DNA from: Naegleria gruberi
Taxonomy: Eukaryota
Length of the DNA: 64,000 bases
NCBI GenBank assembly: GCA_000004985.1
Contig: GG738868.1
Strand: one strand, 5' to 3'
Of the stretch, positions 5,193 to 42,196 are shown in pieces (position 1 is the first letter of the stretch; each line of letters begins with the position of its first letter). Both the position numbers and the translations under genes were made by a program. The notes beneath the pieces were generated by a model, which made no database searches, had not been told where the DNA came from, and saw only the letters and a program-made list of their open reading frames with translations.

Positions 5193-6665
5193 TCAAAACT
5201 TAATATCGATCTTTGGGAACAATTCTTTTAAAGTTTCCCTATCTTCATATCCTAACATTCTTGTTACAACAATTTTTTGTAGATTTGTAAAGGACTTGCA
5301 AACATCATCATTACAGTATTTGAGTGATGGAAAATTACATTTCAACAGTGAAACAGAGTTGAAAGAAGATGAGTTAAATAATGTTTCATAGAATTCTAGT
5401 GGTTCATGATACCAATGCCTAATATTTAAATTAAGCTCTTGCACAGTTAGAGCAGCTCTGAAATTTCCAAACAATTCATTTTGAGTGCAATCCAATGACA
5501 ACTTGTGTAAACTGAGACAGTTAGGTAAAAACCAACCAAAGTTGTCACAGCTTGAAATAGAAAGGTTGGTCAGTGATCTATTTGAATCCACAGTCCCCTT
5601 CCTTGATGCAGTGTTAGATTTCGAATCGCGAACCGAAAGTGTGGTTAAAATAGGACAGTTTCCTGAAAATAGTATGCTTTCAATAACAAATGAATCTAGA
5701 ACAATATTTGACAGAGAAAGAGAGCATAGCTTTGAAAATTGAACTGAAAAAACATTATCACCTGGTATATTAAGGTAGGAAAGACGTACCAAAGTGGAAG
5801 CATTCTGTTGTATGAAGCTCTTGATATTGAGGTATGAATCAAATGTTCGACAGTAGTCTAGTTCTAAGGATTCCAGCTTTCTACATGAGGATGTGAACTT
5901 TTCAGTTCCTTTGCAGCGAGCATAATGTCTTATAAAATTCATTTTGAGGTGTTTCAAATTTCTGGTGGCCCTTCCTGAAAGGAGAGTTGAAAAATATCCT
6001 TCACAATGGTCTAAATCTAATTTTGTAATGTTTTTCATGTATTTGCTTTGTGAAAAGTGGTTTGCTGCATATTCATTGATTTCTGAGACTGACAAATCAA
6101 GGCTTTTCAAATTCCTCATCCTTCTCGAGCTTGCAAGAGCTGCCAAAGCATGGCCACTAAAGTGTCGCAATTCCAGACGAGTAATATTTCTTGAGTGTAT
6201 GTAGCTAAGCATGCAATTCACTCTAGTTTCATTGATAAGACATCTCTTTAAACCTATCAAAGACACTTCCAAGTTACCAACTACTTTCAGATTTGATCTA
6301 AACGTCTTGGAGACTAATTGAACCGAATGTACCATCTCGGAAGTAGGAATGTAGCTGAAGATTTCTCCCCAAATATCAGAATTGAGTCTGTCCCAAATTT
6401 TCCATCTCCTACTAGCATTAAACTTCATCACGAAATACTCCACATTTCCAACAAACTCATTCACCATTTCAAAATTATCCAAATAGTATTGAAAATCAAG
6501 AGTATCAGCCTTTCTAATCATATCCAACATTCCATCGTTAATCAAACTCATCTTGTTGTATGCTTCATCCTTCTCAACCAAGGCTAACTTTTGAGGCTGT
6601 TCATCTTCGGTTGAGTGTTGCTGAAACTTTCTCTTCTTTGTTGTCGAAGAAAGCTTTCGAGTCAT
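5193..6665 (-). CDS. F-box / leucine-rich-repeat protein
   Basis: 490-aa ORF. N-terminal F-box-like segment (WKIWDRLNSDIWGEIFSYIPTSEMVHSVQLVSKTFRS) followed by LRR-like L-x-x-L-x-L-x-x-C repeats. Confidence 0.6.
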   Translation of the reverse strand: MTRKLSSTTKKRKFQQHSTEDEQPQKLALVEKDEAYNKMSLINDGMLDMIRKADTLDFQYYLDNFEMVNEFVGNVEYFVMKFNASRRWKIWDRLNSDIWGEIFSYIPTSEMVHSVQLVSKTFRSNLKVVGNLEVSLIGLKRCLINETRVNCMLSYIHSRNITRLELRHFSGHALAALASSRRMRNLKSLDLSVSEINEYAANHFSQSKYMKNITKLDLDHCEGYFSTLLSGRATRNLKHLKMNFIRHYARCKGTEKFTSSCRKLESLELDYCRTFDSYLNIKSFIQQNASTLVRLSYLNIPGDNVFSVQFSKLCSLSLSNIVLDSFVIESILFSGNCPILTTLSVRDSKSNTASRKGTVDSNRSLTNLSISSCDNFGWFLPNCLSLHKLSLDCTQNELFGNFRAALTVQELNLNIRHWYHEPLEFYETLFNSSSFNSVSLLKCNFPSLKYCNDDVCKSFTNLQKIVVTRMLGYEDRETLKELFPKIDIKF

Positions 6666-17836: not shown

Positions 17837-19771
17837 ATGACGAAAAAGAAACCACAAAAAAAGTCATCACAATCCAACAATAATTCATCAGTGCCGTCGG
17901 GATCTAACAATGCAGGAAAACAATCCCTCACCGAGCACGAAATACAAATGGTTTTATTGGAGGAACAAGAAATTGATCAATTATTTTCTACCATGTCCCT
18001 GAAAAGAAAACCAATTGCAAAGGATGGAGCTTGTCTTTTTAGAGCCTTTTCTGATTTGTATTATGGAACACAAATTTATCATGATAGAGTTAGAAAATCA
18101 TGTATTGAATATATGAAAGAACACGAAAGTTTTTTTAAAGATTTTATATTTGAAATGGATTTTAATTCTTATATTAAATTCATGTCAAAAGCTACATCAT
18201 GGGGAAGTCAATTGGAATTGGAAGCTTTGGCTTCATTGTACAAGGTCAATATTACAGTATATGGTGTAAATGGAATCTTGACTGAACATAGAGGAGATCC
18301 AACTCTTGAAGCACAAGATGTGAAAAATCAATGGAGTTCTGATACTTCAATTTCTGATCTGATAAGACAAAAGAAACTGGAAAAGGTTGAACCAAAGAAG
18401 AGAAAGGAAATTAGATTAGCGTATTTGTATGGAAGTCACTACGACTCTGTTTATCCAGCAAATGAATTTATGAATACTATCATTGTTCAAGATATTATTT
18501 ATGATACCTTTATGGACCCATTTAAAAATGATTTATTTCAAAAGAAGGTTGGAACCTACAAGAATGTGGAATATGATGCTTGGTTAGATGAACTTGAAAA
18601 GATGGAAAAGAAATCTCTTCAAAAAGTTAAGGAATTATTATTTCAGAATGAGAAGAGTTATGATTTGGATGATCCAAGGGAATTCCCACAACTTGCAAAA
18701 CAAAGTTCAAACTCAATTTCACCACCAGTTGCTTCATCCTCATCAACAGATTCTGCAACACCACAAGATGGTTCTGCTGAAAATGCAGATTCATCCGTTA
18801 CAGTAGAAGAAAAACCAGTCAATGCTTGGTTGACTCAAGAGAAACCAAACTGGGCTTCAGTAGCTATAACCAAACCAGTTGAAACTCAACCGGAAGCACA
18901 ACCTGAAACTCAAACTAATGGTACCACTCCAACAATTAATGCCTCAACAAATAATAATAATAATGGAACTACCAAGTCAGTAATATCTCAATCCCACTCA
19001 TTAACAGTCAAAATGGAAACCAGTACTACTCAGGAATCCTCCAACAACAAGAAAAAAGCTAAAGGAAATCACAAATCAAAGAAACCAAAGAACACCGAAA
19101 TATCAAGTAATCAACAAGTTAAACCTAATACTAAGGATGATGTATCATTAACAAATGATGAAGTGAAACAGTCACCTCCAGTTGTGAATATTAATAACCA
19201 AAATAATTCATCTCAACAACAATCAGTGACAATTTCCCAACAACCACCATTAGTTTCTCAATTTTCTCCTCTTACTGGTTATCCTCAACAACCATTCTCT
19301 CCACCCCAATTTATGGGGCAACCTGGAGTCTTTCCTAATCAACCTCCTTTCCTTGTCATGATGCCTCCCCCAGGCACTTATCCAATGCCTCAACAAAATC
19401 CAAATAATGGAATGATTTTAATTCCAACTAATTTGGTTCCGCCAAATTTTGTTCCTCATTATCCAATGATGCCACCAATGCAACATCATGCAAATCAAAT
19501 TGTTCCTCCACCACAGCAGCCTGTTGTTGTTCAGAATCATCAACCAGTTATTCCTCAAGTTGTTACTGAACCACCTAAACCGGTCTCTGCCTGGTCCATG
19601 CCATTACAATCCAATCCAACTTCCAATTTGACTGTTTCTTCTGTTGTAAATTCACAACCAGTCTCTACTTCCACCTCAAGTAGTACTACACCAGCTCAAT
19701 CAACAACAAGTAAATCAGAACCATCAACTACACAGTCAGGCAATAAGAAGAATACAAGAAAGAAAAAGTAA
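17837..19771 (+). CDS. OTU-domain cysteine protease (deubiquitinase-like) with long Q/P/N/S/T-rich tail
   Basis: 644-aa single ORF. OTU core with catalytic Cys context KDGACLFRAFSDLYYG, SWGSQLELEALASLYKVNITVY and His motif YLYGSHYDSVYP. Confidence 0.8.
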   Translation: MTKKKPQKKSSQSNNNSSVPSGSNNAGKQSLTEHEIQMVLLEEQEIDQLFSTMSLKRKPIAKDGACLFRAFSDLYYGTQIYHDRVRKSCIEYMKEHESFFKDFIFEMDFNSYIKFMSKATSWGSQLELEALASLYKVNITVYGVNGILTEHRGDPTLEAQDVKNQWSSDTSISDLIRQKKLEKVEPKKRKEIRLAYLYGSHYDSVYPANEFMNTIIVQDIIYDTFMDPFKNDLFQKKVGTYKNVEYDAWLDELEKMEKKSLQKVKELLFQNEKSYDLDDPREFPQLAKQSSNSISPPVASSSSTDSATPQDGSAENADSSVTVEEKPVNAWLTQEKPNWASVAITKPVETQPEAQPETQTNGTTPTINASTNNNNNGTTKSVISQSHSLTVKMETSTTQESSNNKKKAKGNHKSKKPKNTEISSNQQVKPNTKDDVSLTNDEVKQSPPVVNINNQNNSSQQQSVTISQQPPLVSQFSPLTGYPQQPFSPPQFMGQPGVFPNQPPFLVMMPPPGTYPMPQQNPNNGMILIPTNLVPPNFVPHYPMMPPMQHHANQIVPPPQQPVVVQNHQPVIPQVVTEPPKPVSAWSMPLQSNPTSNLTVSSVVNSQPVSTSTSSSTTPAQSTTSKSEPSTTQSGNKKNTRKKK

Positions 19772-19927: not shown

Positions 19928-20263
19928 TTACAAATTATCTACAACTTGTCTCGATTGATAAAAACCATCTTTTGGATGATTTCTATGCCACTTTTTATGA
20001 TTGGTATCAGTGGATCGATGATACCATTGATCATTCGTCCTTCGCCTTATAATAGATTCCTGTTTCTTTGCTTCAATAAACTCTAACTTTTCCCATCCTT
20101 TTGCTGTGTTGTACTTTTCGAAAGTTACCGAAACACCTCGATCACTTTCTTTTGATCGGAATTTGTTTGTACTATACTTTGTGGAGGCTTCAGAAGTTTT
20201 AGGCACTCGAGGTGTTTGTGCCTTGACTTTGCCACTTCTTGCCAACGAACCATACATACGCAT
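19928..20263 (-). CDS. ORF whose N-terminus matches ribosomal protein eS30 but whose remainder does not (fragment or pseudogene?)
   Basis: 111-aa ORF. YGSLARSGKVKAQTPRVPK resembles the eS30 N-terminus (KVHGSLARAGKVRGQTPKV). The expected C-terminus (GRAKRR..YNRRFVNV) was not found in any frame within the 500 nt downstream. Confidence 0.3.
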   Translation of the reverse strand: MRMYGSLARSGKVKAQTPRVPKTSEASTKYSTNKFRSKESDRGVSVTFEKYNTAKGWEKLEFIEAKKQESIIRRRTNDQWYHRSTDTNHKKWHRNHPKDGFYQSRQVVDNL

Positions 20264-20498: not shown

Positions 20499-23400
20499 AT
20501 GTCTCTTCCTGCCCATAATTTTCTCTACAGGGATAATCCGATAGAGACAATGAAGAGGAATGTTGAGCAGTTTTTCAGGGGAGGACCACCAAGAGGGCTA
20601 CAACAGGCTCCACCTCCACTCTTTGTTAGGAATGTTTTGCCAACATCGAGAACACCTGTGTTTGCTAATCAACCTCCTTCTCCTTCTTTGCTGACTCAAA
20701 TGAATGAACAACAAACGAGTAGTGAGGAAGGAATTGATGAAAGGAGAGATAAGACCATTCTAATGAGTAGACCCCGAGAGTATGAAGACATCAATCAAGA
20801 TACCATTAAGGACACAGCCTTAGACTTTGAACATCAACAACAATTAAAAGAAAAATCCGATGTAAATAATAATAGAGAAAATAATATTGATGATAACCAG
20901 GAGAATAGTAATAATAGTAATAATATTAACGCAAATACTTTGGGAGAATTATTTTCAAATAGTGTACTATCATCTTACAAATGGTTAAAATTTGATGGTG
21001 ATAAGGCTTGTGTTTATTCCGATCAAAACCTCACAACTATTGTGGAGACTTATGAAGTATCAAAGAGGTTGGGGAAAGGATCAGGAGGAAGTGTCTTTTT
21101 GTGTACAAAACAATCGGATAAGACTGCAATAGCATTGAAGAAAGTCCATGTTGATGATAAATACTTGTTGGAGATGGCAGTAAAGGAGTATTCACTTCTT
21201 GTAAAGCTGAATGAGGAAGGAAAAGGAAATGATAATAGAATTACACCAGTATTTGAACTGTTCATTGATATTGATTCACGGAATGAAACTTACATTATGT
21301 ATTTTACAATGCCAGTGTATCATACAGATTTAGAGAAATATATGAAACAAGCGAGGAAGGATAGTACGATTAATCAAAATATTGTTTTGTCAGTAATGAC
21401 GCAAGTCTCAAAGGCCTTGTCTTACATTCACAGGAATAATATTTGCCATCGTGATATCAAGCCAGCAAACATTTTGGTGGAAGATGTGAAACCTGAATCA
21501 ATCACTTGCGTTTTGGCTGATTTTGGATTGAGTAAGGAAATTGAGGAATCATCAAGACATTCAAATGTGGGAACTTTGAGTTTTTTTGCTCCAGAAATTC
21601 TAACAGAAGAAAGTTATGGGCTGAGAGTGGATGTTTTCGGACTAGGAGTTGTCTTGTTCCAATTGATAACTGGAGACTATTCCAAGAAGATAGCTTGGGA
21701 ACTTGTCCAAAAACCAGAAAATCTTGTGGAGCAATTAATTCAACAACAAATGAAGAATGCCCTCCCAACATTGGAAGATGATATCATTCAAATTATTCTT
21801 CAAATGTTGAAGAAATCACCTCGTCAACGAATTCACTCAACAGAGATTTATCACTTTTGTTTGATGAAGAAAACCAAATCCAAAAAGTTGCAACAATTAG
21901 AGCACAGACTTTCAAATCAGCCTAAACCAATACCTCCACTTAGAACCTCCACTTTACCGCCCAATAGACCACCTTCAAGAAGTATTCCAGAATCAACATT
22001 ACACCAAACTCCAGAAATCAAATTACATGAAGTCCCTGTGGTTTCCTCGTCAAATGATTTACCATCCATTGATAGTTCAGTAAAAGTAAGATCAAAATCT
22101 TTCAGCCAAAGGCAAGATGTAGCGCTGCATGTTATAACAGAAACTTTGGCAGGCTCTTTCAGAAGACTATTCACAAAAACAGATGAAAACTCATTTACCT
22201 CTTTAGAGAGTGCTCTAGCTTTCTGCAGATCACAAGCACAAGATGTTACTTTTACCATATTACTTCATCCAGGAGTGCATAAAATCAAGCAGGTTTTTCA
22301 CATTGATAGATCAAACATAATATTTGAAGGTATTGAAAAGAATGATGAGGAGGCAATTGTTCAAGGAGAGAAAATAATTATTACTGCCAATGTTCTCTTT
22401 AGAAAAATTAATTTTGTAGGAAAGAAGATAATCAAGGGTAGTTTAATGACCAATCCTATAATTATTCAATGTCTGAATTGTGAACCAAAAATCTTGAACT
22501 GTAGAATTAAGGGAAAGGTGTCAATACATTCTAAAGTTCCAAATCTCTGCCCTCACATTGAAGGAACAGAAATATTTGGTAACAGTGATAAATTAAAAAC
22601 AGATCCTCACGAGAGACTTGGGAAAGAAGCATTGTACATTGAAAACTGCTTGCCAATTGTGACAAAGAATAGAATCCACGATAATGGTAAGTAATTTCTT
22701 TGACAAAACATTTTTTACATGAAACAGAAAGTGCAGGAGTGGGGTTGAAGAATTGTGGAGGAATATTCTCAAATAATCATGTGTATAATAACTTTATTTC
22801 AGAAGTACCGGCTGTAATTTTATCGAATGGATGTACAACAAGATTAGTTTCCAACATGTTTTATGACAATATTGCATGTATGTCTATTTCCAATTCTGAC
22901 TGCTGTTGTGAAAACAATGAGCTAAGATCGAGTAGAATTGGAATCAATGCCATTAATTCTTCTGTAATACTAGAAAATAATGAAATTGTAGGAATGAATG
23001 ATTGGGCCATGACTTTGAAGAAGTGTTCTAATTTTGTAAGTTCTCTTTGAGAATATAGCTAATCCACAGATTAGAAAATCACCAATAACAAGTTACACAA
23101 TAACAGGATAGGATTGTTTATGGACGAAATTAATGGAGAAGGGTTAGTGTCAGGAAATAGGTTTAGCTCTTGTAATTCAAAACAATTTTCATCCATTTCG
23201 ATAACTCACCTTTCAAAGATAACAAGTGTTTCTCTACAAGAAAATATGTAAGTGTAATTCAATTTAATGAAATATTTAATGAAATATGAGTCTAGATTTT
23301 TCCAAAACATTGGTGGGGCAATTAATATTTCTGGAAAGGAAGACCTCTCAGAGAATTACATGATCAAGTTGAATATTTCAAAGAATCAAATTTTCAATAA

Positions 23401-23793
23401 TTCAATGTATGGAATAAGGGTTCTTAATGCCATGGGAATTTTCATTTTGGACAATAATATCTTTTCTAATATGGACTCTGGTATAATATTGGATTCACAT
23501 CATGCTGTCACTGTTGAATACAACATTATTAAGGATCATGTTCAATCCCCAGCAATCAGTAAGTTGAAATTACATCTCTCTAATAACTTTGTTCTTTAGG
23601 TATTTTGAGAAATTCTAATCATTTAATTGTAAATAATTCACTTTCAGGAAATGCAAAATACGATTTATTCATCAAAGAACCATTATCAGAGGAATTCCCC
23701 ATGGTTATCAAAGACAACAAGCTATCTAATTCTGAAATAAGAAAGTCCATTCATTACGAAGGAAAAGATGAACAATTTTCAGAAAATGAATAA
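20499..23793 (+). CDS. Ser/Thr protein kinase fused to C-terminal right-handed parallel beta-helix (PbH1/CASH-like) repeats, at least 5 exons
   Basis: Proposed exons 20499..22686, 22728..23035, 23107..23247, 23296..23558, 23600..23793. Kinase motifs HRDIKPANIL, DFGLS, APE. After an S/P-rich linker come beta-helix repeats (NCGGIFSNNHVYNNF, SNGCTTRLVSNMFYDNIA, ISKNQIFNNSMYGIRVLNAMGIFILDNNIFSNMDSGIIL). Junctions 1/2, 3/4 and 4/5 are frame-consistent. The 2/3 junction is off by one nt with the obvious GTAAGT donor. Confidence 0.75.
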
Positions 23794-23813
23794 AAAAACA
23801 ACAATTAATTTGT

Positions 23814-24716
23814 TTAAATTCCTGAAGATAAATCTGAATCACTACTATATGTTCTCATTTCTTCCAACTGAGCAACATTTTGAGAGGCAACAGTCTTGAA
23901 TCCAATTTCGTCTTTCATATCTTCATCAGTAAGGAGGCACCGTTGAGATTTATCCTTCTTTGAGTAGCTAGTCATACCATTCAGTAAATCTCGTCCTTTA
24001 ACACCATTTGTGATAACAGCCACAGAGATACCAACAAATACAATACAAGCTGCTCCAATTATAATAATGTACCAATAATTCTGTAAGAACCATATGAACC
24101 CTCTTCCGTAACTGTATTTCGTTTCGACATTAATCGTCAAGAGAGATGAATTCTCCTGATTTAAATTCACACTAACAAAAACATAAGAATCAGAGGTTGT
24201 AATGTAAACGATATGAGTGTCTTGGCTATCAGTTTCGTTCAAAACTTGAATATTCATAGCCTTTTGTCGTAATGTTCTAAGTGAAGGATCTTTAATAAAT
24301 TCAAAATAACCAGACCTGGTAACTATCATAAAATTGCATTTGACAGTTGCACAATTAGCTGATATTCTCAAGTTATCCAACATATTTTCCTCCGTAATAT
24401 TAAAAGGTATCGGAATGAGAGATGAAGCCGGTATTGTGTTATTAAATGAAAATAAAAGCTTCTTTCCATTACTAGTTGAATTTTGTTGAGGTGAAACATC
24501 ATTAAGGTTTGCCAAATCCAATGCTTCTGTAACACTATTTCCTAATACTAATACAGCTATTATACATGCTATCAATAATCCTAGATTTGATGAAACCCTA
24601 GAGTTTTGAATGTGACGGAAAATTATGCATTTTCCTAGCATTGTTTTGTTCAGTTTTTTTTGGGATGCGTTGTTAGTGCCCTTAATATACAGGATCGGAT
24701 CTCTTATTAGCTTCAT
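23814..24716 (-). CDS. hypothetical single-pass (signal-anchor plus C-terminal TM) glycoprotein
   Basis: 300-aa ORF with N-terminal hydrophobic segment (LGLLIACIIAVLVLG), many N-x-S/T sites and a TM helix (YWYIIIIGAACIVFVGISVAVI) before a short cytoplasmic tail. The real start is probably an internal Met. Confidence 0.4.
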   Translation of the reverse strand: MKLIRDPILYIKGTNNASQKKLNKTMLGKCIIFRHIQNSRVSSNLGLLIACIIAVLVLGNSVTEALDLANLNDVSPQQNSTSNGKKLLFSFNNTIPASSLIPIPFNITEENMLDNLRISANCATVKCNFMIVTRSGYFEFIKDPSLRTLRQKAMNIQVLNETDSQDTHIVYITTSDSYVFVSVNLNQENSSLLTINVETKYSYGRGFIWFLQNYWYIIIIGAACIVFVGISVAVITNGVKGRDLLNGMTSYSKKDKSQRCLLTDEDMKDEIGFKTVASQNVAQLEEMRTYSSDSDLSSGI

Positions 24717-24810
24717 TCAACAACAACGGCTACCAATCTTTTGATTCGCTCATTTATAGTAGTTAAGGGAATTGTAATATTGGGTTGATTAAAATATATT
24801 CACAAATAAT

Positions 24811-26990
24811 TTATTTGAATTGGACTTTGTTTCCTTCGAATTCGATAAGCAATTCTTCAATAGTCTTGACACCTTGTTCCTTATCGCTATCTCTAATTCT
24901 AATGTTAACACTGTCACTTTCCATTTCCTTAGGACCAACAACCAAAATATAGTTGTATTGAGACAATTGAGCATTTCTGATCTTCTTGTCAATTCTATTG
25001 CTGCTCAAATCAACATCAACGTAGTACTTGGCTTCATGGAGCCTCTTTTGAACCTTTTCAGCATATTCGTTGCACTTGTTGGAAACTGGAACAACGATAG
25101 CTTGTCTTGGTGAGAGCCAGAAAGGCCACTTACCACCAAAGTGTTCAGTAGCAATAGCCAAGAATCTTTCCAATGAACCAAAGATGGCTCTGTGGACAAT
25201 AACTGGTCTAGATTCAGTCTTATCTTCAGCAGCATAAGTCAAATCGAAACGAATTGGCAATTGGAAATCCAATTGAACAGTAGCACATTGATGTTCTCTC
25301 TTCAAAGCATCAGAAATGAGAATATCAATCTTTGGACCGTAGAAGGCACCATCACCTTCATTCTTTTGCCAAGAATGACCGAATTCATTCAAAGCAGCTT
25401 CCAATTGACCTTCAGCTTCATCCCATTGACTAATTTCACCGAGATACTTTTCTGGTCTAGTAGAAAGGAAAAGTCTGAATCCGAAACCAAAGATCTTGTA
25501 AATGTCTTGCATCATACGCAAAGCACCCATAATTTCACTCTTAATTTGATCTGGACGACAGAAAATGTGAGCATCATCTTGTTGGAATTTTCTTAAACGA
25601 GTCATACCAGTCAAAGCACCCTTCAATTCATTACGATGCAAAACACCAAAATCAGCAAAACGAATTGGCAATTCTCTGTATGATCTAGTTCTATGTTTGA
25701 ACATGAGACAATGGCTAGGACAGTTCATTGGCTTCAAGCTGTGTTGAGCCTTATCAATTTCCAAAACAAACATATTTTCAGCATACTTATCCCAGTGACC
25801 AGAAGTCTTCCATAAATCACTGTGGAAAACATTTGGAGTTTGAACTTCAGAGTAACCACGATGCCAATATTCATTTCTCATCAATGATTGAATGCTATTG
25901 AACAAACGTTGACCGTGAGGTAAGAAGAAAACCATACCAGGAGCATATGGATGGAAGAACCACAATTCTTGATCCTTACCAATGATACGATGGTCACGTT
26001 TCTTAGCTTCTTCCATCAAAGTTTGCCATTCCTTCATGAGTTTCTTGTCTGGGAAAGACATAGCATAGACACGTTGCAAAGTTTCCTTGCTAGCATCAGC
26101 TCTCCAGTAAGATGATGAGTTCTTAGTGACTTCAAAAGTGGTAACTTTACCAGTATTCAACAAGTGAGGACCCTTGCAAGGATCGATCAATCTACCACAA
26201 CGATAAACACTACAATAGTCTCCTTCCTTGACCTTTTCAGACAAGATTTCAACCTTGAACTTGTTATCAGCGAACAATTCAAGAGCTTCAGCCTTGGTGA
26301 TGAGCAATCTTTCGAAAGGTTGCTTTTCATTGATAATCTTGGTGACAGCATCCTTGACTTTTGGATAATCAGTTTCGGAGACAGAACTATTCATGATGAA
26401 ATTTGTTGTTGTTAATTATATTGATGTTATATTTCATAGAGTGTCATGTTGTTAATATTCAGTAGTTGTTATTATTATAATAATAATAGAGGAAGAATTA
26501 GTGTAGATAATAATAATTAGTATCATCATCATACAATAAAAACTTACTTATCACCCATGTAGGCTTCATAGTAGAAACCACCATCTTCCAATGGAGGTCC
26601 CTTACAGAGGAAGCATTTGAAAACATCTTCCATAGCTTCACCCATAACGTGAGAAGAACTGTGCCAGAAAACTTCCTTGGCTTCTGGGTGGTCAAACTTT
26701 AACAATTCCAAAGTACAATCACCTTCAAGAGCTCTACCCATATCCCACAATGCACCATTGACTTTAGCAACGACACAATTAGCAGCAAGACCAGCAGAGA
26801 TGGACATGGCAATATCGTGTGGAGTGGTTTCGTAAGCCTTACCAGGTCTAGTACTATTATCTGGGAGAGTAATAGTGATTTCCTTTCCAAGGACATCACC
26901 TAATTCTTGTCTTCTTCTTTCCTTGAATTCTTCAAAGAGTTTATTTCTCTTAGCATAGTATTCATCAATCTTTTCAAAACTGACGCTCAT
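24811..26990 (-). CDS. threonyl-tRNA synthetase (class II), 2 exons
   Basis: Minus exons 26548..26990 (TGS domain: ITLPDNSTRPGKAYETTPHDIAMSIS...VFWHSSSHVMGEAME...GFYYEAYMGD) and 24811..26386 (catalytic core, motifs FQQDDAHIF, PMNCPSHC, and anticodon-binding domain). GTAAGT donor, TAG acceptor, phase-2 junction giving ...YMGD-N-SVSETDYPKVKD. Confidence 0.9.
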
Positions 26991-27390
26991 TTTTTTTTAA
27001 ATAATCAAATTTAATATTTTAAAATTATCTTGTTTTTTTGCAATACCCAATTGAAATCGATAAAGTATTTATAGGTTTGAGAATCTGGATTTCTGGTCGA
27101 AGATATTGTTATCTGCACTGTATTTGATGAATTTGAAAGAAAACGGTGCAAATTCATAAGTGAATTTGAAACAAGAGTTAATTTGAAGGAGGTTCATATT
27201 CAGATTTATATTTAGGAGTGCAGCAATAATATTGCATTTGAATACGGTTCAACTTTATGAATGAACCAGTAACTTGTTGACCATGTTACAAGAGTAGCTA
27301 CTCATTTGAATTTATCAAATACACAATATCTTTGTATAAAATTAATGCAAATAGAAGATTGAAATAAATTAGATTTATTAATGTACAATA

Positions 27391-29335
27391 TTAAGCTCTC
27401 TTATTTGGCTTAATTTTCATATTCTTGAAATATTCACAAACTTGACCTGGGATTTCCTTCAAGGTTTCTCTTGCCAAGAGTTGATAATTTTGAGAATTAT
27501 ATTTACGGAATGGAACAAATTGAACAATGTCACGAGAGGCAATTTGTGAACCACTTGAAAGTCTTCTGTCATCTCCATCAAGAGTTTCCATCGAATCGAA
27601 ATTGGCAGCACCAACACCAACAATGACAATTGAAAGAGGATAGTTTGAGGCCTTGACAATTTCTCTGATAGTATCATTCATATCGGTAATAGCACCATCT
27701 GTAATGATGAGCAAGATGAGATACTTTTGATTTTGTTGGCTTTGTTCCATTGAAGCTTGTGAAGCATAGGCAATAGCAGTTTGAATGGTTGGTGAGAAAT
27801 GGGTAGGTCCATATAATTCTATATTGTTTCAAATGTTTGAAAATTGGGGAAAGATAAATAATGGTTAAATATTTTCTGACTAATATAATTCATGAATACT
27901 TACCACAATTGTTCAAAGCTTGACGATAATCACGTAAAATACCATCAACACCTTGACTATTTGGATTATTTGGATTACCATTCAATGCAAAACAGTGTGA
28001 AATAATGTTACCTGGTAATTTTGCTCCAAAACCATAAGATGGGAATAGTTTGTCTGAATCATAGTATGAGAGAATGTCACCAATAGATCTAATAGCCATT
28101 TCATATTCATTCATTTTACCACCAAAATGCAATGAGCTTGGGTCGTTAGGATTACCGTTTGAAGCAGTAAAGTCAACAGCTACTAACAAGGAAACTTCCA
28201 ATCCACCTCCTAAATAATCCAAGAATGAATATTCCTCTTCTGGTAAGACACTTCTAATTCCTCTAACCTGAATTTTACCAGTATTCTTTGGTGCCTTCTT
28301 TTTCTTGTGATAGGAACCATCATCAATTAATGCAATAGATTGTCTATCTCTGTTAACTTGTTCCAATTGAGCAAGAGTTGTTTCAACACTTCCAATCTGT
28401 TTTGTGATCATAAGCTTTAGATGATTCTTTTAACTTCAACTTACAAAGTCTGGATCAGAATTCTTGTCCCAATCAAAGACTTGAATTCTAATTGGTAAAT
28501 TGGCATCACCATTGCACAATTTTTGCATTGGAATTGAAAATCCTTTCCATACAGGATTTAAATTATTCATAATTGTCTCGGATTTGTAAATATCAACAAA
28601 TTCATTTCCGACCTTTTTAGCCAAAATGAAATATCTAATATCCATCATCCACATTATTTCTCATTACTATTAATTTATGGAATACTTACGGATCACTGAT
28701 AATAATTATTGATTATTAAATTTACAATCAATATTATACAAACCTCTTTCCGAAAAAGTCCTTCTTTGCAAGATCTTTACCATCCAATTCCAAAGTATAA
28801 ATTGGATCTCTAACCTTAGATTTTTGTTCACTTCTGATGGTAATACTTCCCAAGTCTTTGCTTGTGTCACCATTTAGAGCTGTTAATTTTCTAGTAATGG
28901 CTCCGTTCACACCACAAACAATGTCAGACAATTTAACTTCACAACAACCCAAGAAATCATCATCGGCCAATGAAGCAGTTTCATTATCAATATCATAAAC
29001 CAAAAACTTGAGTGGTTGAATTTCTTCAAACTTGTACGAAACAATAAAAGTTTTAACAAACTTTGGGTTGACTGATCATACTATGTTAAATAATAAATGC
29101 ATCAAAAAAACCTACGATTATCTTTTTGAACTTCTGTTCTACCCAAATCACTCCAGAAAACCTCACCACTCTGTTGTCTCTCTCCCATTCTCACAAGACA
29201 TGTCGGATCCGACTTGGACAATAAATCTTTATTCTTCAAATGTGTACATGAAATGTACAATTCAACCTTGGATTCCAATTGATTACTAATTGACAAACCA
29301 GCCATTTGTTGTTGCAAACCTCCAGTGCTGTACAT
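27391..29335 (-). CDS. copine (C2A-C2B-vWA) calcium-dependent phospholipid-binding protein, 6 exons including a 6-nt micro-exon
   Basis: Minus exons 29116..29335, 28744..29071, 28690..28695, 28445..28634, 27904..28396, 27391..27818. The spliced protein is collinear with copines: LSKSDPTC...GRTEVQKDN|LNPKFVKTFIVSYKFEEIQ...FFGKR|SD|PYFILAKK...NLNPVWKGF...DWDKNSDPDF|IGSVETT...VAVDFTASNGNP...|ELYGPTHF...LILLIITDGAITD...VQFVPFRKY. Confidence 0.85.
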
Positions 29336-40402: not shown

Positions 40403-42196
40403 TTATTCTGAGAGATCTATGAGGGGAACGTTTAAAAAGTTCAATTGTTCAAAACAATGATCAAGACCATTGAGAATGGCTTGCTGTTTTTCTCTCAATT
40501 CTTCATTCGAAAGTTTTCCAATAAATTGTTCAATTCTGAAGGAAATCAAGTTTGAAACGTGTGGTAGGAGCATTACATATATGGGATATACAATATTTTT
40601 CATTTGATTGTAAACTGGTTTTTGAACTATTCCCATGTGAAAGAAAAAGTGTGAAAAGAGTTTTGAAAACTTACTAGAAGTGAAACTGCATGATTTTGTT
40701 GCATCTGAAAGAGTTGGCTCACAGAAAACATATAAATATAAATATCTTCTCAAACACTTATCAATTGCTCTGATTAAGAAACCATCCACTTTAAAAGTTC
40801 CTCTGTATGAATTTTTAAGTTTTGTTCTTTGAGATTCAAAATTTTTCATATACTCATTGGCATCATTGGGATTTGAAACACTTTCGAATAGCTTGGTAAC
40901 AGGTGTCTGAAGTAAATGTTCAACCTCACTCTTGGATGGGAACTTAGCCAATTGGTTACAAATGAATTCCTCACTAATTCCATTACCTTTGAAACTTTCA
41001 AATACATGTTTTGCGTACTTGTCAACTTGTGATTGAAAGTAAATTCTTGCGCTTGTACTTGGATTCACACATTTACTTCTTCTAAAGTGGTGATGAAAAA
41101 CTGTCTGGTCTTTCACATAGCCAATATAACTATCTAGTCCTAAATATCTTTCCAATAAGCCAGTAATCACGAATGAATAATATGTTTCATCAATGGAGGC
41201 ACAATAACTTTCAAACAATGATATCATCCTGTTAGAATCTCTTGGATAGACCAATGAATATTCCTCATCCGTTGAAACAATAGTACAATCAAATTCCTTC
41301 ACCTCAGAATCAATCTTATCCAATGGAACATGTGGATAAACCCTAAAAGATGGTCCTGGCAACCCTGTCTCCATACTAAAATCCACATATGGAAGTGAAT
41401 GTATACCCTCTTGTTCCTCTCTCAAAAATCTATCTTTACCAGAATATCCTCTCGAAAACAGAAAATAGGCAGAACATGGACAACTGCTCTTAAAATTCAA
41501 ATCAGTTACCAAATTCTTGAATAGCCTCTTAATGCTCTTGTTTGGTAGATTAACTTGATTGATAATATCCATTAAGAATGTGTTGTTAGTATTTCCTAAT
41601 TGTCTTGTTTCAGTCAACAAGTAGAAAAGTTTGAATATTTTCAAATAGATGGAATATTGTACTCTGTGATATTTGAAACTGGATAACGAATTCTGATTCC
41701 ATGTATATTCAGAATTGAAATTAGTTTCACAAAACATGTGATCCATGATGATTGAGCTCATAAAATGAACCATTTGACTTTTACAACTTATCTTGACAAT
41801 ATTAAAATCCCTTTCTTCCACTTTTCTAACAGTATTCGAAAATAAGTCCTTAAACCAAAACGAATCATCTTTCAAAAAGGTCCTTATTCTTTCCTCTCTC
41901 TCATCATTCCACAATTTCATCTGAATCCAATCCTCAATCAGTCCAATCAAGTTAGGATACATGTATTCAAATTGTTTTTTCCACAATTTTGAATTTTGTA
42001 AAATTAATTTTCTCATATTTCGATTCAAAATTGTAAAATTCATAATCAACTCTTTAGGATGAAAAAACTCTGCCATAAAATAACCAACAAAAAACTCAAC
42101 TCCAAAATCATTGATCATGAAAGAAAATTCGTTCTTTGCCTTCATACGATCGTTCACAACACTTGTTGGTGTTGTGTGGCATTGTTTTGAAGGCAT
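40403..42196 (-). CDS. hypothetical protein (597 aa), no recognised domain
   Basis: Long intronless minus ORF with coding-like composition. No motif I can assign. Confidence 0.4.
   Translation of the reverse strand: MPSKQCHTTPTSVVNDRMKAKNEFSFMINDFGVEFFVGYFMAEFFHPKELIMNFTILNRNMRKLILQNSKLWKKQFEYMYPNLIGLIEDWIQMKLWNDEREERIRTFLKDDSFWFKDLFSNTVRKVEERDFNIVKISCKSQMVHFMSSIIMDHMFCETNFNSEYTWNQNSLSSFKYHRVQYSIYLKIFKLFYLLTETRQLGNTNNTFLMDIINQVNLPNKSIKRLFKNLVTDLNFKSSCPCSAYFLFSRGYSGKDRFLREEQEGIHSLPYVDFSMETGLPGPSFRVYPHVPLDKIDSEVKEFDCTIVSTDEEYSLVYPRDSNRMISLFESYCASIDETYYSFVITGLLERYLGLDSYIGYVKDQTVFHHHFRRSKCVNPSTSARIYFQSQVDKYAKHVFESFKGNGISEEFICNQLAKFPSKSEVEHLLQTPVTKLFESVSNPNDANEYMKNFESQRTKLKNSYRGTFKVDGFLIRAIDKCLRRYLYLYVFCEPTLSDATKSCSFTSSKFSKLFSHFFFHMGIVQKPVYNQMKNIVYPIYVMLLPHVSNLISFRIEQFIGKLSNEELREKQQAILNGLDHCFEQLNFLNVPLIDLSE

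What the first reader, a model, noticed from the sequence alone, without database searches (positions are those of the whole stretch)
20499..23793. Ser/Thr kinase fused to a right-handed parallel beta-helix (PbH1/CASH-like) domain
A complete eukaryotic protein-kinase domain (HRDIKPANIL / DFGLS / APE) continues through an S/P-rich linker. It then runs into about 450 aa of parallel beta-helix repeats (N/G/I-rich ~22-aa turns) spread over 4-5 exons. Beta-helix (CASH) domains are usually carbohydrate-binding or glycosidase modules, for example in FBXO11 or pectate lyases. A kinase-CASH fusion is not an architecture I know from characterised proteins and could be a lineage-specific signalling receptor.
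Basis: partly seen in the sequence, partly recalled or inferred. Interest (0 to 1): 0.6.

Follow-up and report, generated by a model that had tools for sequence, protein, structure and literature searches.

The report
Naegleria kinase fused to beta-helix domain
This is one real, spliced Naegleria gruberi gene encoding a soluble protein kinase joined to a beta-helix repeat domain; the same uncharacterised fusion occurs in related amoebae, but it is not a membrane receptor.

Summary
Window 20499-23793 (+) is one five-exon gene with four introns of 39-48 nt, all GTAAGT...AG. It encodes 1041 aa.

- Domains: Pkinase at aa 185-451 (E 2e-44), with all catalytic motifs intact. Beta_helix (E 5e-16) and NosD (E 8e-11) lie in aa 786-1022.
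- Organism: Naegleria gruberi. Two other window ORFs are exact NAEGRDRAFT proteins.
- Orthologues: collinear kinase plus beta-helix proteins exist in N. fowleri, N. lovaniensis, Willaertia magna, Acrasis kona and an uncultured eukaryote.
- Intron 1 sits at the same codon and phase in N. fowleri.
- Repeat type: NosD/FBXO11 "CASH" (hhalign 97%).
- No signal peptide or transmembrane segment, so the "receptor" reading fails.
- The architecture is not unique: bacterial kinase, TIR and caspase fusions to beta-helix exist, but their kinase domains are unrelated, so they arose independently.
- Residues invariant across the beta-helix are structural only, which argues for a binding or targeting module rather than an enzyme.

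No N. gruberi protein model for this gene turned up in the public collections. Verdict: a real, heterolobosean-restricted, uncharacterised family. Moderate interest.

The parts
20499..23793 (+). Whole gene: five exons, 1041-aa product, stop TAA at 23791-23793
   Evidence: Spliced CDS is 3126 nt, in frame, with no internal stop. It is collinear with N. fowleri P0001 and N. lovaniensis P0002 across all four junctions.
20499..22686 (+). Exon 1 (aa 1-729 plus the first base of codon 730). Holds the N-terminal low-complexity region, the kinase, the linker and the first ~190 aa of the beta-helix domain
   Evidence: ORF list, sequence and alignment.
20499..20963 (+). N-terminal N/Q/S/P-rich low-complexity region (aa 1-155). 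Not conserved in orthologues, so the true start could be a downstream Met
   Evidence: Alignment A1 is gapped against both orthologues over this stretch.
21051..21851 (+). Eukaryotic protein kinase domain (aa 185-451). GKGSGG 192, Lys214 in AIALKK, HRDIKPAN 317, DFG 341, APE 364
   Evidence: Pfam Pkinase E 2.4e-44; motif scan; best solved relative is a calcium-dependent protein kinase, 3is5, E 7e-22.
21852..21896 (+). Conserved basic segment directly after the kinase (HFCLMKKTKSKKLQQ, aa 452-466)
   Evidence: Nearly invariant in the three Naegleria sequences.
21897..22088 (+). S/P-rich, poorly conserved linker (aa 467-530)
   Evidence: Alignment.
22089..22103 (+). Invariant RSKSF motif (aa 531-535), a basophilic-kinase-type Ser site just before the beta-helix. 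A regulatory role is inferred only
   Evidence: Present in N. gruberi, N. fowleri and N. lovaniensis.
22116..23790 (+). Right-handed parallel beta-helix domain (aa ~540-1041, introns excluded). It has an N-terminal cap helix (FTSLESAL) and then roughly 17 rungs of NosD/FBXO11-type PbH1 repeats
22687..22727 (+). Intron 1 (41 nt, phase 1, inside the Glu codon after HDN)
   Evidence: N. fowleri has a 42-nt intron at the same codon and phase (L001). Fragment P0126 reads into the same intron ('IHDNGK').
22728..23035 (+). Exon 2
23036..23074 (+). Intron 2 (39 nt, phase 0)
   Evidence: Only the acceptor at 23073-23074 keeps the frame open; the one at 23068-23069 runs into a stop (sequence).
23075..23247 (+). 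Exon 3
23248..23295 (+). Intron 3 (48 nt, phase 2)
23296..23558 (+). Exon 4
23559..23599 (+). Intron 4 (41 nt, phase 1)
23600..23793 (+). Exon 5 with the stop codon

Best explanation
Shown: 20499-23793 is a single five-exon Naegleria gruberi gene. Its 1041-aa product has no signal peptide and no membrane segment, so it is soluble. The kinase domain carries every catalytic motif and is presumably active. It is joined by a disordered S/P-rich linker to a C-terminal right-handed parallel beta-helix of about 500 aa and about 17 rungs, built of NosD/FBXO11-type (PbH1/'CASH') repeats. The whole architecture is an orthologous family conserved across Heterolobosea: Naegleria, Willaertia, Acrasis and an uncultured eukaryote.

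Inferred: the beta-helix is a non-catalytic binding platform. It would recruit substrates or partners, or localise or regulate the kinase, much as the CASH repeats of FBXO11 recognise substrates for an SCF ubiquitin ligase. The invariant basic segment after the kinase and the invariant RSKSF site before the helix are candidate regulatory or (auto)phosphorylation elements. The ligand is unknown.
For: Gene model:
- In-frame splicing with four GTAAGT...AG mini-introns.
- Intron 1 is at the same codon and phase in N. fowleri.
- The beta-helix domain begins about 190 aa before the end of exon 1, so a split at 22694 would cut a domain in two.

Domains:
- Pfam Pkinase, Beta_helix and NosD all score above their curated cut-offs.
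- Catalytic motifs are intact.

Organism:
- Exact matches to NAEGRDRAFT_67601 and NAEGRDRAFT_67619.

Conservation:
- N. fowleri E 1e-192 and N. lovaniensis E 7e-160, both annotated Pkinase plus Beta_helix plus NosD.
- W. magna, A. kona and JGI contig proteins have the same domains.
- The JGI contig is eukaryotic.
- The kinase domains are mutually orthologous: 51%, 45% and 37% identity.

Fold:
- AlphaFold model pLDDT 83.9, pTM 0.82.

Repeat type:
- hhalign 97% to the FBXO11-like CASH region.
- The family profile hits FBXO11-like proteins at E 2e-31.

Soluble:
- Maximum 19-residue hydrophobicity 1.49, located inside the kinase.

Non-catalytic helix:
- The columns invariant across five orthologues within the rungs are Asn, Gly, Pro, Cys, Ser, Ala and hydrophobic residues. 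The only invariant charged residues, K21 and E31, lie in the N-terminal cap.

FBXO11 precedent:
Against: - No transcript data were available, so splicing rests on sequence logic and orthologue collinearity.
- The binding or targeting role is by analogy only. No ligand, partner or substrate is known for any member.
- Most solved beta-helix neighbours are polysaccharide lyases, epimerases or tailspikes, so a glycan ligand is not excluded.
- The family profile scores bacterial TIR- and TPR-beta-helix proteins (about 150 bits) slightly above FBXO11 (127 bits), so FBXO11 is not a specific sister.
- The structure model is of the N. fowleri orthologue (37% identical over this domain), because the spliced N. 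gruberi sequence was not accepted by the tool.
- The N-terminal 155 aa are unconserved, so the start codon is uncertain.
Confidence: 0.6

Rival explanations
1. The beta-helix is a carbohydrate-recognising or carbohydrate-modifying module. Either the kinase is switched by binding a cytosolic glycan or glycoconjugate (for example cyst-wall precursors or glycosylated proteins), or the C-terminus is itself a lyase, epimerase or hydrolase.
For: The nearest solved folds are polysaccharide lyases, mannuronan C5-epimerases, glycosidases and phage tailspikes. The CASH/PbH1 class was originally defined on carbohydrate-binding proteins and sugar hydrolases (my own knowledge).
Against: No conserved acidic, basic or His constellation exists in the rungs across five orthologues. 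Sequence identity to the enzymes is only 8-16%. The protein is cytosolic, with no signal peptide or transmembrane segment. The repeat type is the one FBXO11 uses for protein substrates.
Confidence: 0.2
2. It is a cytosolic sensor of foreign or danger molecules. On this reading it is analogous to the bacterial proteins that couple the same repeat type to TIR, caspase or kinase effector domains: the beta-helix senses and the kinase signals.
For: The weaker hits of the beta-helix domain include TIR plus Beta_helix (P0130, P0145), Peptidase_C14 plus PG_binding plus Beta_helix (P0150), TPR plus Beta_helix (P0135) and bacterial Pkinase plus Beta_helix proteins without transmembrane segments (P0137, P0149).
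Against: This is purely an architectural analogy. None of those bacterial proteins was shown here to be a defence protein, and PADLOC was not run. The heterolobosean gene is single-copy and conserved as an orthologue, unlike typical fast-expanding immune sensor families. The kinase is not related to the bacterial ones (about 28% identity over partial alignments).
Confidence: 0.1
3. There are two separate genes: a kinase ending near 22694 and a beta-helix gene starting near 22728.
For: Exon 1 runs into a stop three codons after the donor site. Prokaryote-style gene calls on an identical metagenome contig split the region into fragments.
Against: The beta-helix N-cap and first rungs are already inside exon 1. 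Exon 2 has no initiator near its start. All four junctions restore frame and match the orthologue sequence. The intron is conserved in N. fowleri. Single-protein models exist in four other species.
Confidence: 0.03
4. It is a transmembrane receptor kinase with an extracellular beta-helix ectodomain.
For: None beyond analogy with receptor kinases.
Against: There is no hydrophobic segment of transmembrane quality and no signal peptide. The kinase lies N-terminal to the helix with only a polar S/P linker between them. Most orthologues likewise lack a transmembrane segment; the one 2.07 peak in N. fowleri lies inside a predicted beta-helix rung.
Confidence: 0.02

Closest known systems
Heterolobosean orthologues: N. 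fowleri FDP41_012159, N. lovaniensis C9374_001435, Willaertia magna ABK040_005783 (KAL9644322.1), Acrasis kona KAL0480882.1
   Same: Same collinear architecture: kinase, then linker, then capped beta-helix. Kinase identity is 51%, 51%, 45% and 37% in the order listed. Intron 1 is shared with N. fowleri. All are annotated only as hypothetical or generic kinase.
   Different: N. gruberi has an extra ~150-aa low-complexity N-terminus. RSKSF is conserved only within Naegleria. The A. kona helix carries an S/P-rich insertion.
FBXO11 (and FBXO10) CASH/PbH1 repeat region
   Same: The beta-helix repeats are homologous (hhalign 97%; profile E 2e-31). The motif type '..P.I..N.IHDN...GI.L' is shared. Both are intracellular, and the FBXO11 helix serves as a protein-substrate recognition surface.
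   Different: The Naegleria protein has no F-box and no UBR zinc finger. Its partner domain is a kinase rather than an SCF adaptor. FBXO11 is not a specific sister, because bacterial repeat proteins score equally well or better.
Bacterial Hanks-type kinase plus beta-helix proteins (metagenomic P0137, P0149)
   Same: Same domain order (N-terminal Pkinase, C-terminal NosD/FBXO11-type repeats), with no transmembrane segment.
   Different: The kinase domains are unrelated beyond the superfamily level (about 28% identity over partial alignments). The bacterial repeats are near-perfect tandem copies, while the Naegleria rungs are highly diverged. Independent fusion is the likely origin.
NosD, mannuronan C5-epimerases (AlgE4/AlgG), PL6 lyases and phage tailspikes
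   Different: These are periplasmic, secreted or virion proteins with defined catalytic or metal-handling sites. Identity is 8-16%, and no conserved catalytic residues are seen here.

Membership tests
Eukaryotic protein kinase superfamily (Pfam PF00069) | Profile score above the curated cut-off | tested here: met
   152.2 bits against a cut-off of 31.7, aa 185-451.
Eukaryotic protein kinase superfamily (Pfam PF00069) | Catalytic motifs: Gly-rich loop, beta3 Lys, HRD..K..N catalytic loop, DFG, APE | tested here: met
   GKGSGG 192, K214 (AIALKK), HRDIKPAN 317, DFG 341, APE 364. All are invariant in the orthologue alignment.
Eukaryotic protein kinase superfamily (Pfam PF00069) | Phosphotransferase activity | not testable with these tools
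   Needs a recombinant protein assay.
Right-handed parallel beta-helix / PbH1 repeats (Pfam PF13229 Beta_helix, PF05048 NosD) | Profile scores above the curated cut-offs | tested here: met
   Beta_helix 59.1 bits against 25.9 (four stretches). NosD 42.2 bits against 23.6.
Right-handed parallel beta-helix / PbH1 repeats (Pfam PF13229 Beta_helix, PF05048 NosD) | Three-dimensional beta-solenoid fold | tested here: met
FBXO11/FBXO10 family | CASH-type repeats homologous to those of FBXO11 | tested here: met
   hhalign probability 97%, 203 aligned columns.
FBXO11/FBXO10 family | F-box domain, and in FBXO11 a UBR zinc finger | tested here: not met
   There is no F-box or zf-UBR hit in the Pfam scan at E up to 1. 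The protein shares the repeat module only and is not a family member.
Transmembrane receptor kinases | Signal peptide and/or membrane-spanning segment between the sensor and the kinase | tested here: not met
   Maximum 19-residue Kyte-Doolittle mean is 1.49, inside the kinase alpha-F helix. The N-terminus is polar.
Carbohydrate-active beta-helix enzymes (PL1/PL6/GH28/alginate epimerases) | Conserved catalytic acid/base or Ca-binding residues on the helix face | tested here: inconclusive
   No invariant Asp, Glu, His, Lys or Arg within the rungs across five orthologues. With only five diverged sequences and no residue-level superposition, this is suggestive rather than decisive.
Bacterial Pkinase plus Beta_helix fusions | Common descent of the whole fusion, meaning the kinase domains would be each other's closest relatives | tested here: not met
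   P0137 and P0149 align at about 28% identity over 108-166 residues (E 1e-10 to 1e-12). That is weaker than several unrelated eukaryotic kinases.

The most novel reading that the evidence does not exclude
The heterolobosean kinase plus beta-helix proteins would be a eukaryotic counterpart of a prokaryotic design, in which an FBXO11/NosD-type beta-helix acts as a cytosolic ligand sensor wired to an effector domain (TIR, caspase or kinase). On this reading the Naegleria protein would be a pattern- or metabolite-sensing kinase, a signalling mode not described in eukaryotes.
Probability: 0.1. Interest if true: 0.7.

Novelty: new variant of a known kind. Interest (0 to 1): 0.38.

Why it matters
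Protein kinases gain specificity from their accessory domains. A beta-helix of the FBXO11/NosD type has not, to my knowledge or in the papers searched here, been described as one. A family conserved from Acrasis to Naegleria implies a maintained function in a lineage that includes the lethal pathogen N. fowleri. Because it has no orthologue outside Heterolobosea, it could be a lineage-specific drug or marker target.

It also adds a second eukaryotic context, besides F-box proteins, in which CASH repeats sit inside the cell next to a post-translational modification enzyme. That supports the view that these repeats are general protein-binding or ligand-binding platforms rather than carbohydrate modules.

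On the practical side, the gene appears to be missing from the public N. gruberi protein set, so it is an annotation gap.

Tried and rejected
- **Word-indexed search with the C-terminus alone:** it found nothing. This was an artefact of the word prefilter, which missed even the 38%-identical N. fowleri orthologue, so I did not treat it as evidence of absence.
- the exhaustive search would not accept the spliced N. gruberi protein. I used the N. fowleri C-terminus instead.
- **Exact look-ups:** the neighbouring 644-aa OTU ORF found nothing. The 300-aa ORF and the ThrRS ORF found only an identical metagenome contig with prokaryote-style gene calls. None of these showed the NCBI gene models across 20.5-23.8 kb.
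- **afdb50 fold library:** unavailable, so I could not survey predicted structures for the same architecture.
- **Literature searches:** kinase plus PbH1 or beta-helix, the Naegleria kinome, the Stentor kinome paper and the locus tags gave no description of this architecture.
- **Synteny with N. fowleri:** the neighbours differ (arrestin, PPR and GH38 genes there, against OTU, RPS30 and ThrRS here).
- **FBXO11 as specific sister:** rejected, because bacterial repeat proteins score as well or better.
- **Acceptor at 23068-23069 for intron 2:** rejected, because it leads to a stop.
Full report
**1. What is in the sequence**

The window is AT-rich (about 34% GC) and eukaryotic. On the + strand a 731-codon ORF opens at 20499 and stops at 22694. 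Downstream, four shorter ORFs in shifting frames continue to 23793.

Reading the DNA, each frame change coincides with a GTAAGT donor and an AG acceptor. Joining 20499-22686, 22728-23035, 23075-23247, 23296-23558 and 23600-23793 gives a 3126-nt CDS with no internal stop, encoding 1041 aa. The introns are 41, 39, 48 and 41 nt. For intron 2, only the acceptor at 23073-23074 keeps the frame open.

**2. Domains**

Pfam places the following:
- Pkinase at aa 185-451 (E 2.4e-44, 152 bits against a cut-off of 31.7).
- Beta_helix in four stretches, the best at aa 786-936 (E 5e-16, 59 bits against 25.9).
- NosD at aa 916-1022 (E 8e-11, 42 bits against 23.6).

GKGSGG, HRDIKPAN, DFG and APE are all present, so the kinase should be active. 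The best solved relative is a calcium-dependent protein kinase (3is5, E 7e-22). The best non-orthologous database hits are RSK/MSK- and CAMK-like kinases at about 26% identity. The kinase therefore belongs to no established subfamily.

The highest 19-residue hydrophobicity is 1.49 and lies in the kinase C-lobe, and the N-terminus is polar. There is no signal peptide or membrane anchor.

**3. Organism**

Two other window ORFs are exact matches to Naegleria gruberi proteins. ORF 5193-6665(-) is NAEGRDRAFT_67601, and ORF 40403-42196(-) is NAEGRDRAFT_67619.

**4. Orthologues and the single-gene question**

With the full spliced protein as query, the two top hits were far ahead of everything else:
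- N. fowleri FDP41_012159: 980 aa, E 1e-192.
- N. lovaniensis C9374_001435: 914 aa, E 7e-160.

Both carry precomputed Pkinase plus Beta_helix plus NosD. The three-way alignment is collinear from the pre-kinase segment to the C-terminus and runs straight through all four of my splice junctions.

An exhaustive phmmer search of 1.84 billion representatives, using the N. fowleri C-terminal domain as query, found only 33 proteins at E <= 0.001. The family-type hits among them were:
- Willaertia magna KAL9644322.1.
- Acrasis kona KAL0480882.1.
- A JGI metagenome protein.

These were identified, and all three contain Pkinase plus Beta_helix plus NosD. The JGI contig is eukaryotic, with PTEN, PPR and LITAF neighbours. 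The N-terminal half of its kinase is called as a separate ORF directly upstream.

N. fowleri has a 42-nt intron at exactly the same place and phase as N. gruberi intron 1, inside the Glu codon after HDN. A 109-aa fragment from another Naegleria-like assembly reads into the same intron.

The beta-helix domain, including its N-terminal cap helix and first rungs, starts about 190 aa before the end of exon 1. A kinase gene ending at 22694 would therefore carry a truncated beta-helix. Together these results make the two-gene alternative very unlikely.

No N. gruberi protein appeared in either search, although the N. gruberi proteome is in the collection. The gene therefore seems to be unannotated there.

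**5. Fold and type of the C-terminal domain**

An AlphaFold2 model of the N. fowleri domain, built with five family sequences, has mean pLDDT 83.9 and pTM 0.82. It consists of about 49 short strands in triplets, or roughly 17 rungs, behind an N-terminal helix.

At sequence level:
- The family profile matches NosD weakly in the PDB.
- It hits FBXO11-like proteins at E 2e-31 in the large database.
- hhalign gives 97% probability over 203 columns of the FBXO11 CASH region.

A local hmmsearch shows that bacterial TIR- or TPR-beta-helix proteins (about 150 bits), a Cyanophora protein (142 bits), FBXO11 (127 bits) and bacterial kinase-beta-helix proteins (116-122 bits) all score similarly. The module therefore belongs to the broad NosD/FBXO11 PbH1 class, with no identifiable sister.

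**6. Is the architecture unique?**

It is not. Two metagenomic, bacterial-looking proteins (P0137, P0149) have an N-terminal Pkinase and near-perfect FBXO11-like tandem repeats, and no transmembrane segment. Their kinase domains match the Naegleria kinase only at the superfamily level (about 28% identity). The heterolobosean kinases, by contrast, are 37-51% identical to one another. The fusions are best explained as independent events. The same repeat type is also joined to TIR and caspase domains in prokaryotes.

**7. How it probably works**

Shown: this is a soluble two-domain protein with intact kinase motifs, conserved across Heterolobosea.

Inferred: the helix is a binding or targeting surface.
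- Across five orthologues, the invariant positions in the rungs are Asn (the ladder), Gly, Pro, Cys, Ser, Ala and hydrophobic residues. The only invariant charged residues are in the cap helix. This argues against a conserved active site.
- The nearest intracellular precedent is FBXO11, whose CASH domain recognises protein substrates (PMC13394945).
- The invariant HFCLMKKTKSKK segment and the RSKSF motif flanking the linker are plausible regulatory or phosphorylation elements.

A glycan ligand, or a sensor role by analogy with the bacterial TIR/caspase fusions, cannot be excluded.

**8. Verdict**

This is a new, uncharacterised variant of the multi-domain protein-kinase theme. Orthologues are already in the databases as hypothetical proteins, and no paper describing them was found. 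Interest is moderate.

Noticed in passing
window 20499-23793: No N. gruberi protein model for this gene was retrieved by either database search, although neighbouring NAEGRDRAFT proteins are in the collection. The gene appears to be missing from the public N. gruberi annotation.
   Followed up: partly
window 19928-20263 (-): The first ~29 codons of this ORF match ribosomal protein S30 (Pfam Ribosomal_S30, E 1e-6), and the ORF then diverges, presumably at an intron. This exon lies head-to-head with the kinase gene, about 235 bp from its ATG, which suggests a shared bidirectional promoter region.
   Followed up: partly
window 17837-19771 (+): A 644-aa single-ORF OTU-family cysteine protease (deubiquitinase-like) with a long Q/P/N/S-rich low-complexity C-terminal half. 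The exact sequence is not on record in the collection.
   Followed up: no
L002 (ENA ERZ929261, contig k127_15021, 7140 bp), corresponding to window ~21550-28690: A contig from a 'metagenome' assembly (run ERR1078381) encodes products identical to the two N. gruberi window ORFs looked up there (the 300-aa ORF and the ThrRS ORF), and was gene-called as if prokaryotic. The kinase-beta-helix gene, the threonyl-tRNA synthetase and a copine gene are chopped into fragments. Either N. gruberi was in that sample or the sample was contaminated.
   Followed up: no
window 24811-26394 (-) and upstream: The threonyl-tRNA synthetase core (tRNA_SAD, tRNA-synt_2b, anticodon-binding) is a 527-aa ORF. On the identical contig L002 its TGS domain lies in a separate 148-aa ORF just upstream of the core, so the gene is split by at least one intron.
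   Followed up: no
window 23814-24716 (-): A 300-aa ORF with no Pfam match. Its translation contains two long hydrophobic stretches, so it may be a membrane protein. It converges tail-to-tail on the kinase gene, with only about 20 bp between the two stop codons.
   Followed up: no
P0130, P0145, P0150, P0135 (metagenomic proteins): Prokaryotic proteins join the same NosD/FBXO11-type beta-helix repeats to TIR, to caspase (Peptidase_C14) plus a peptidoglycan-binding domain, or to TPR domains. These look like effector-plus-sensor architectures and may merit their own study.
   Followed up: no
P0128/P0173 (Cyanophora paradoxa, ~1955 aa): A very large glaucophyte protein carries many copies of the same repeat type (142 bits to the family profile). 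Its other domains were not examined.
   Followed up: no
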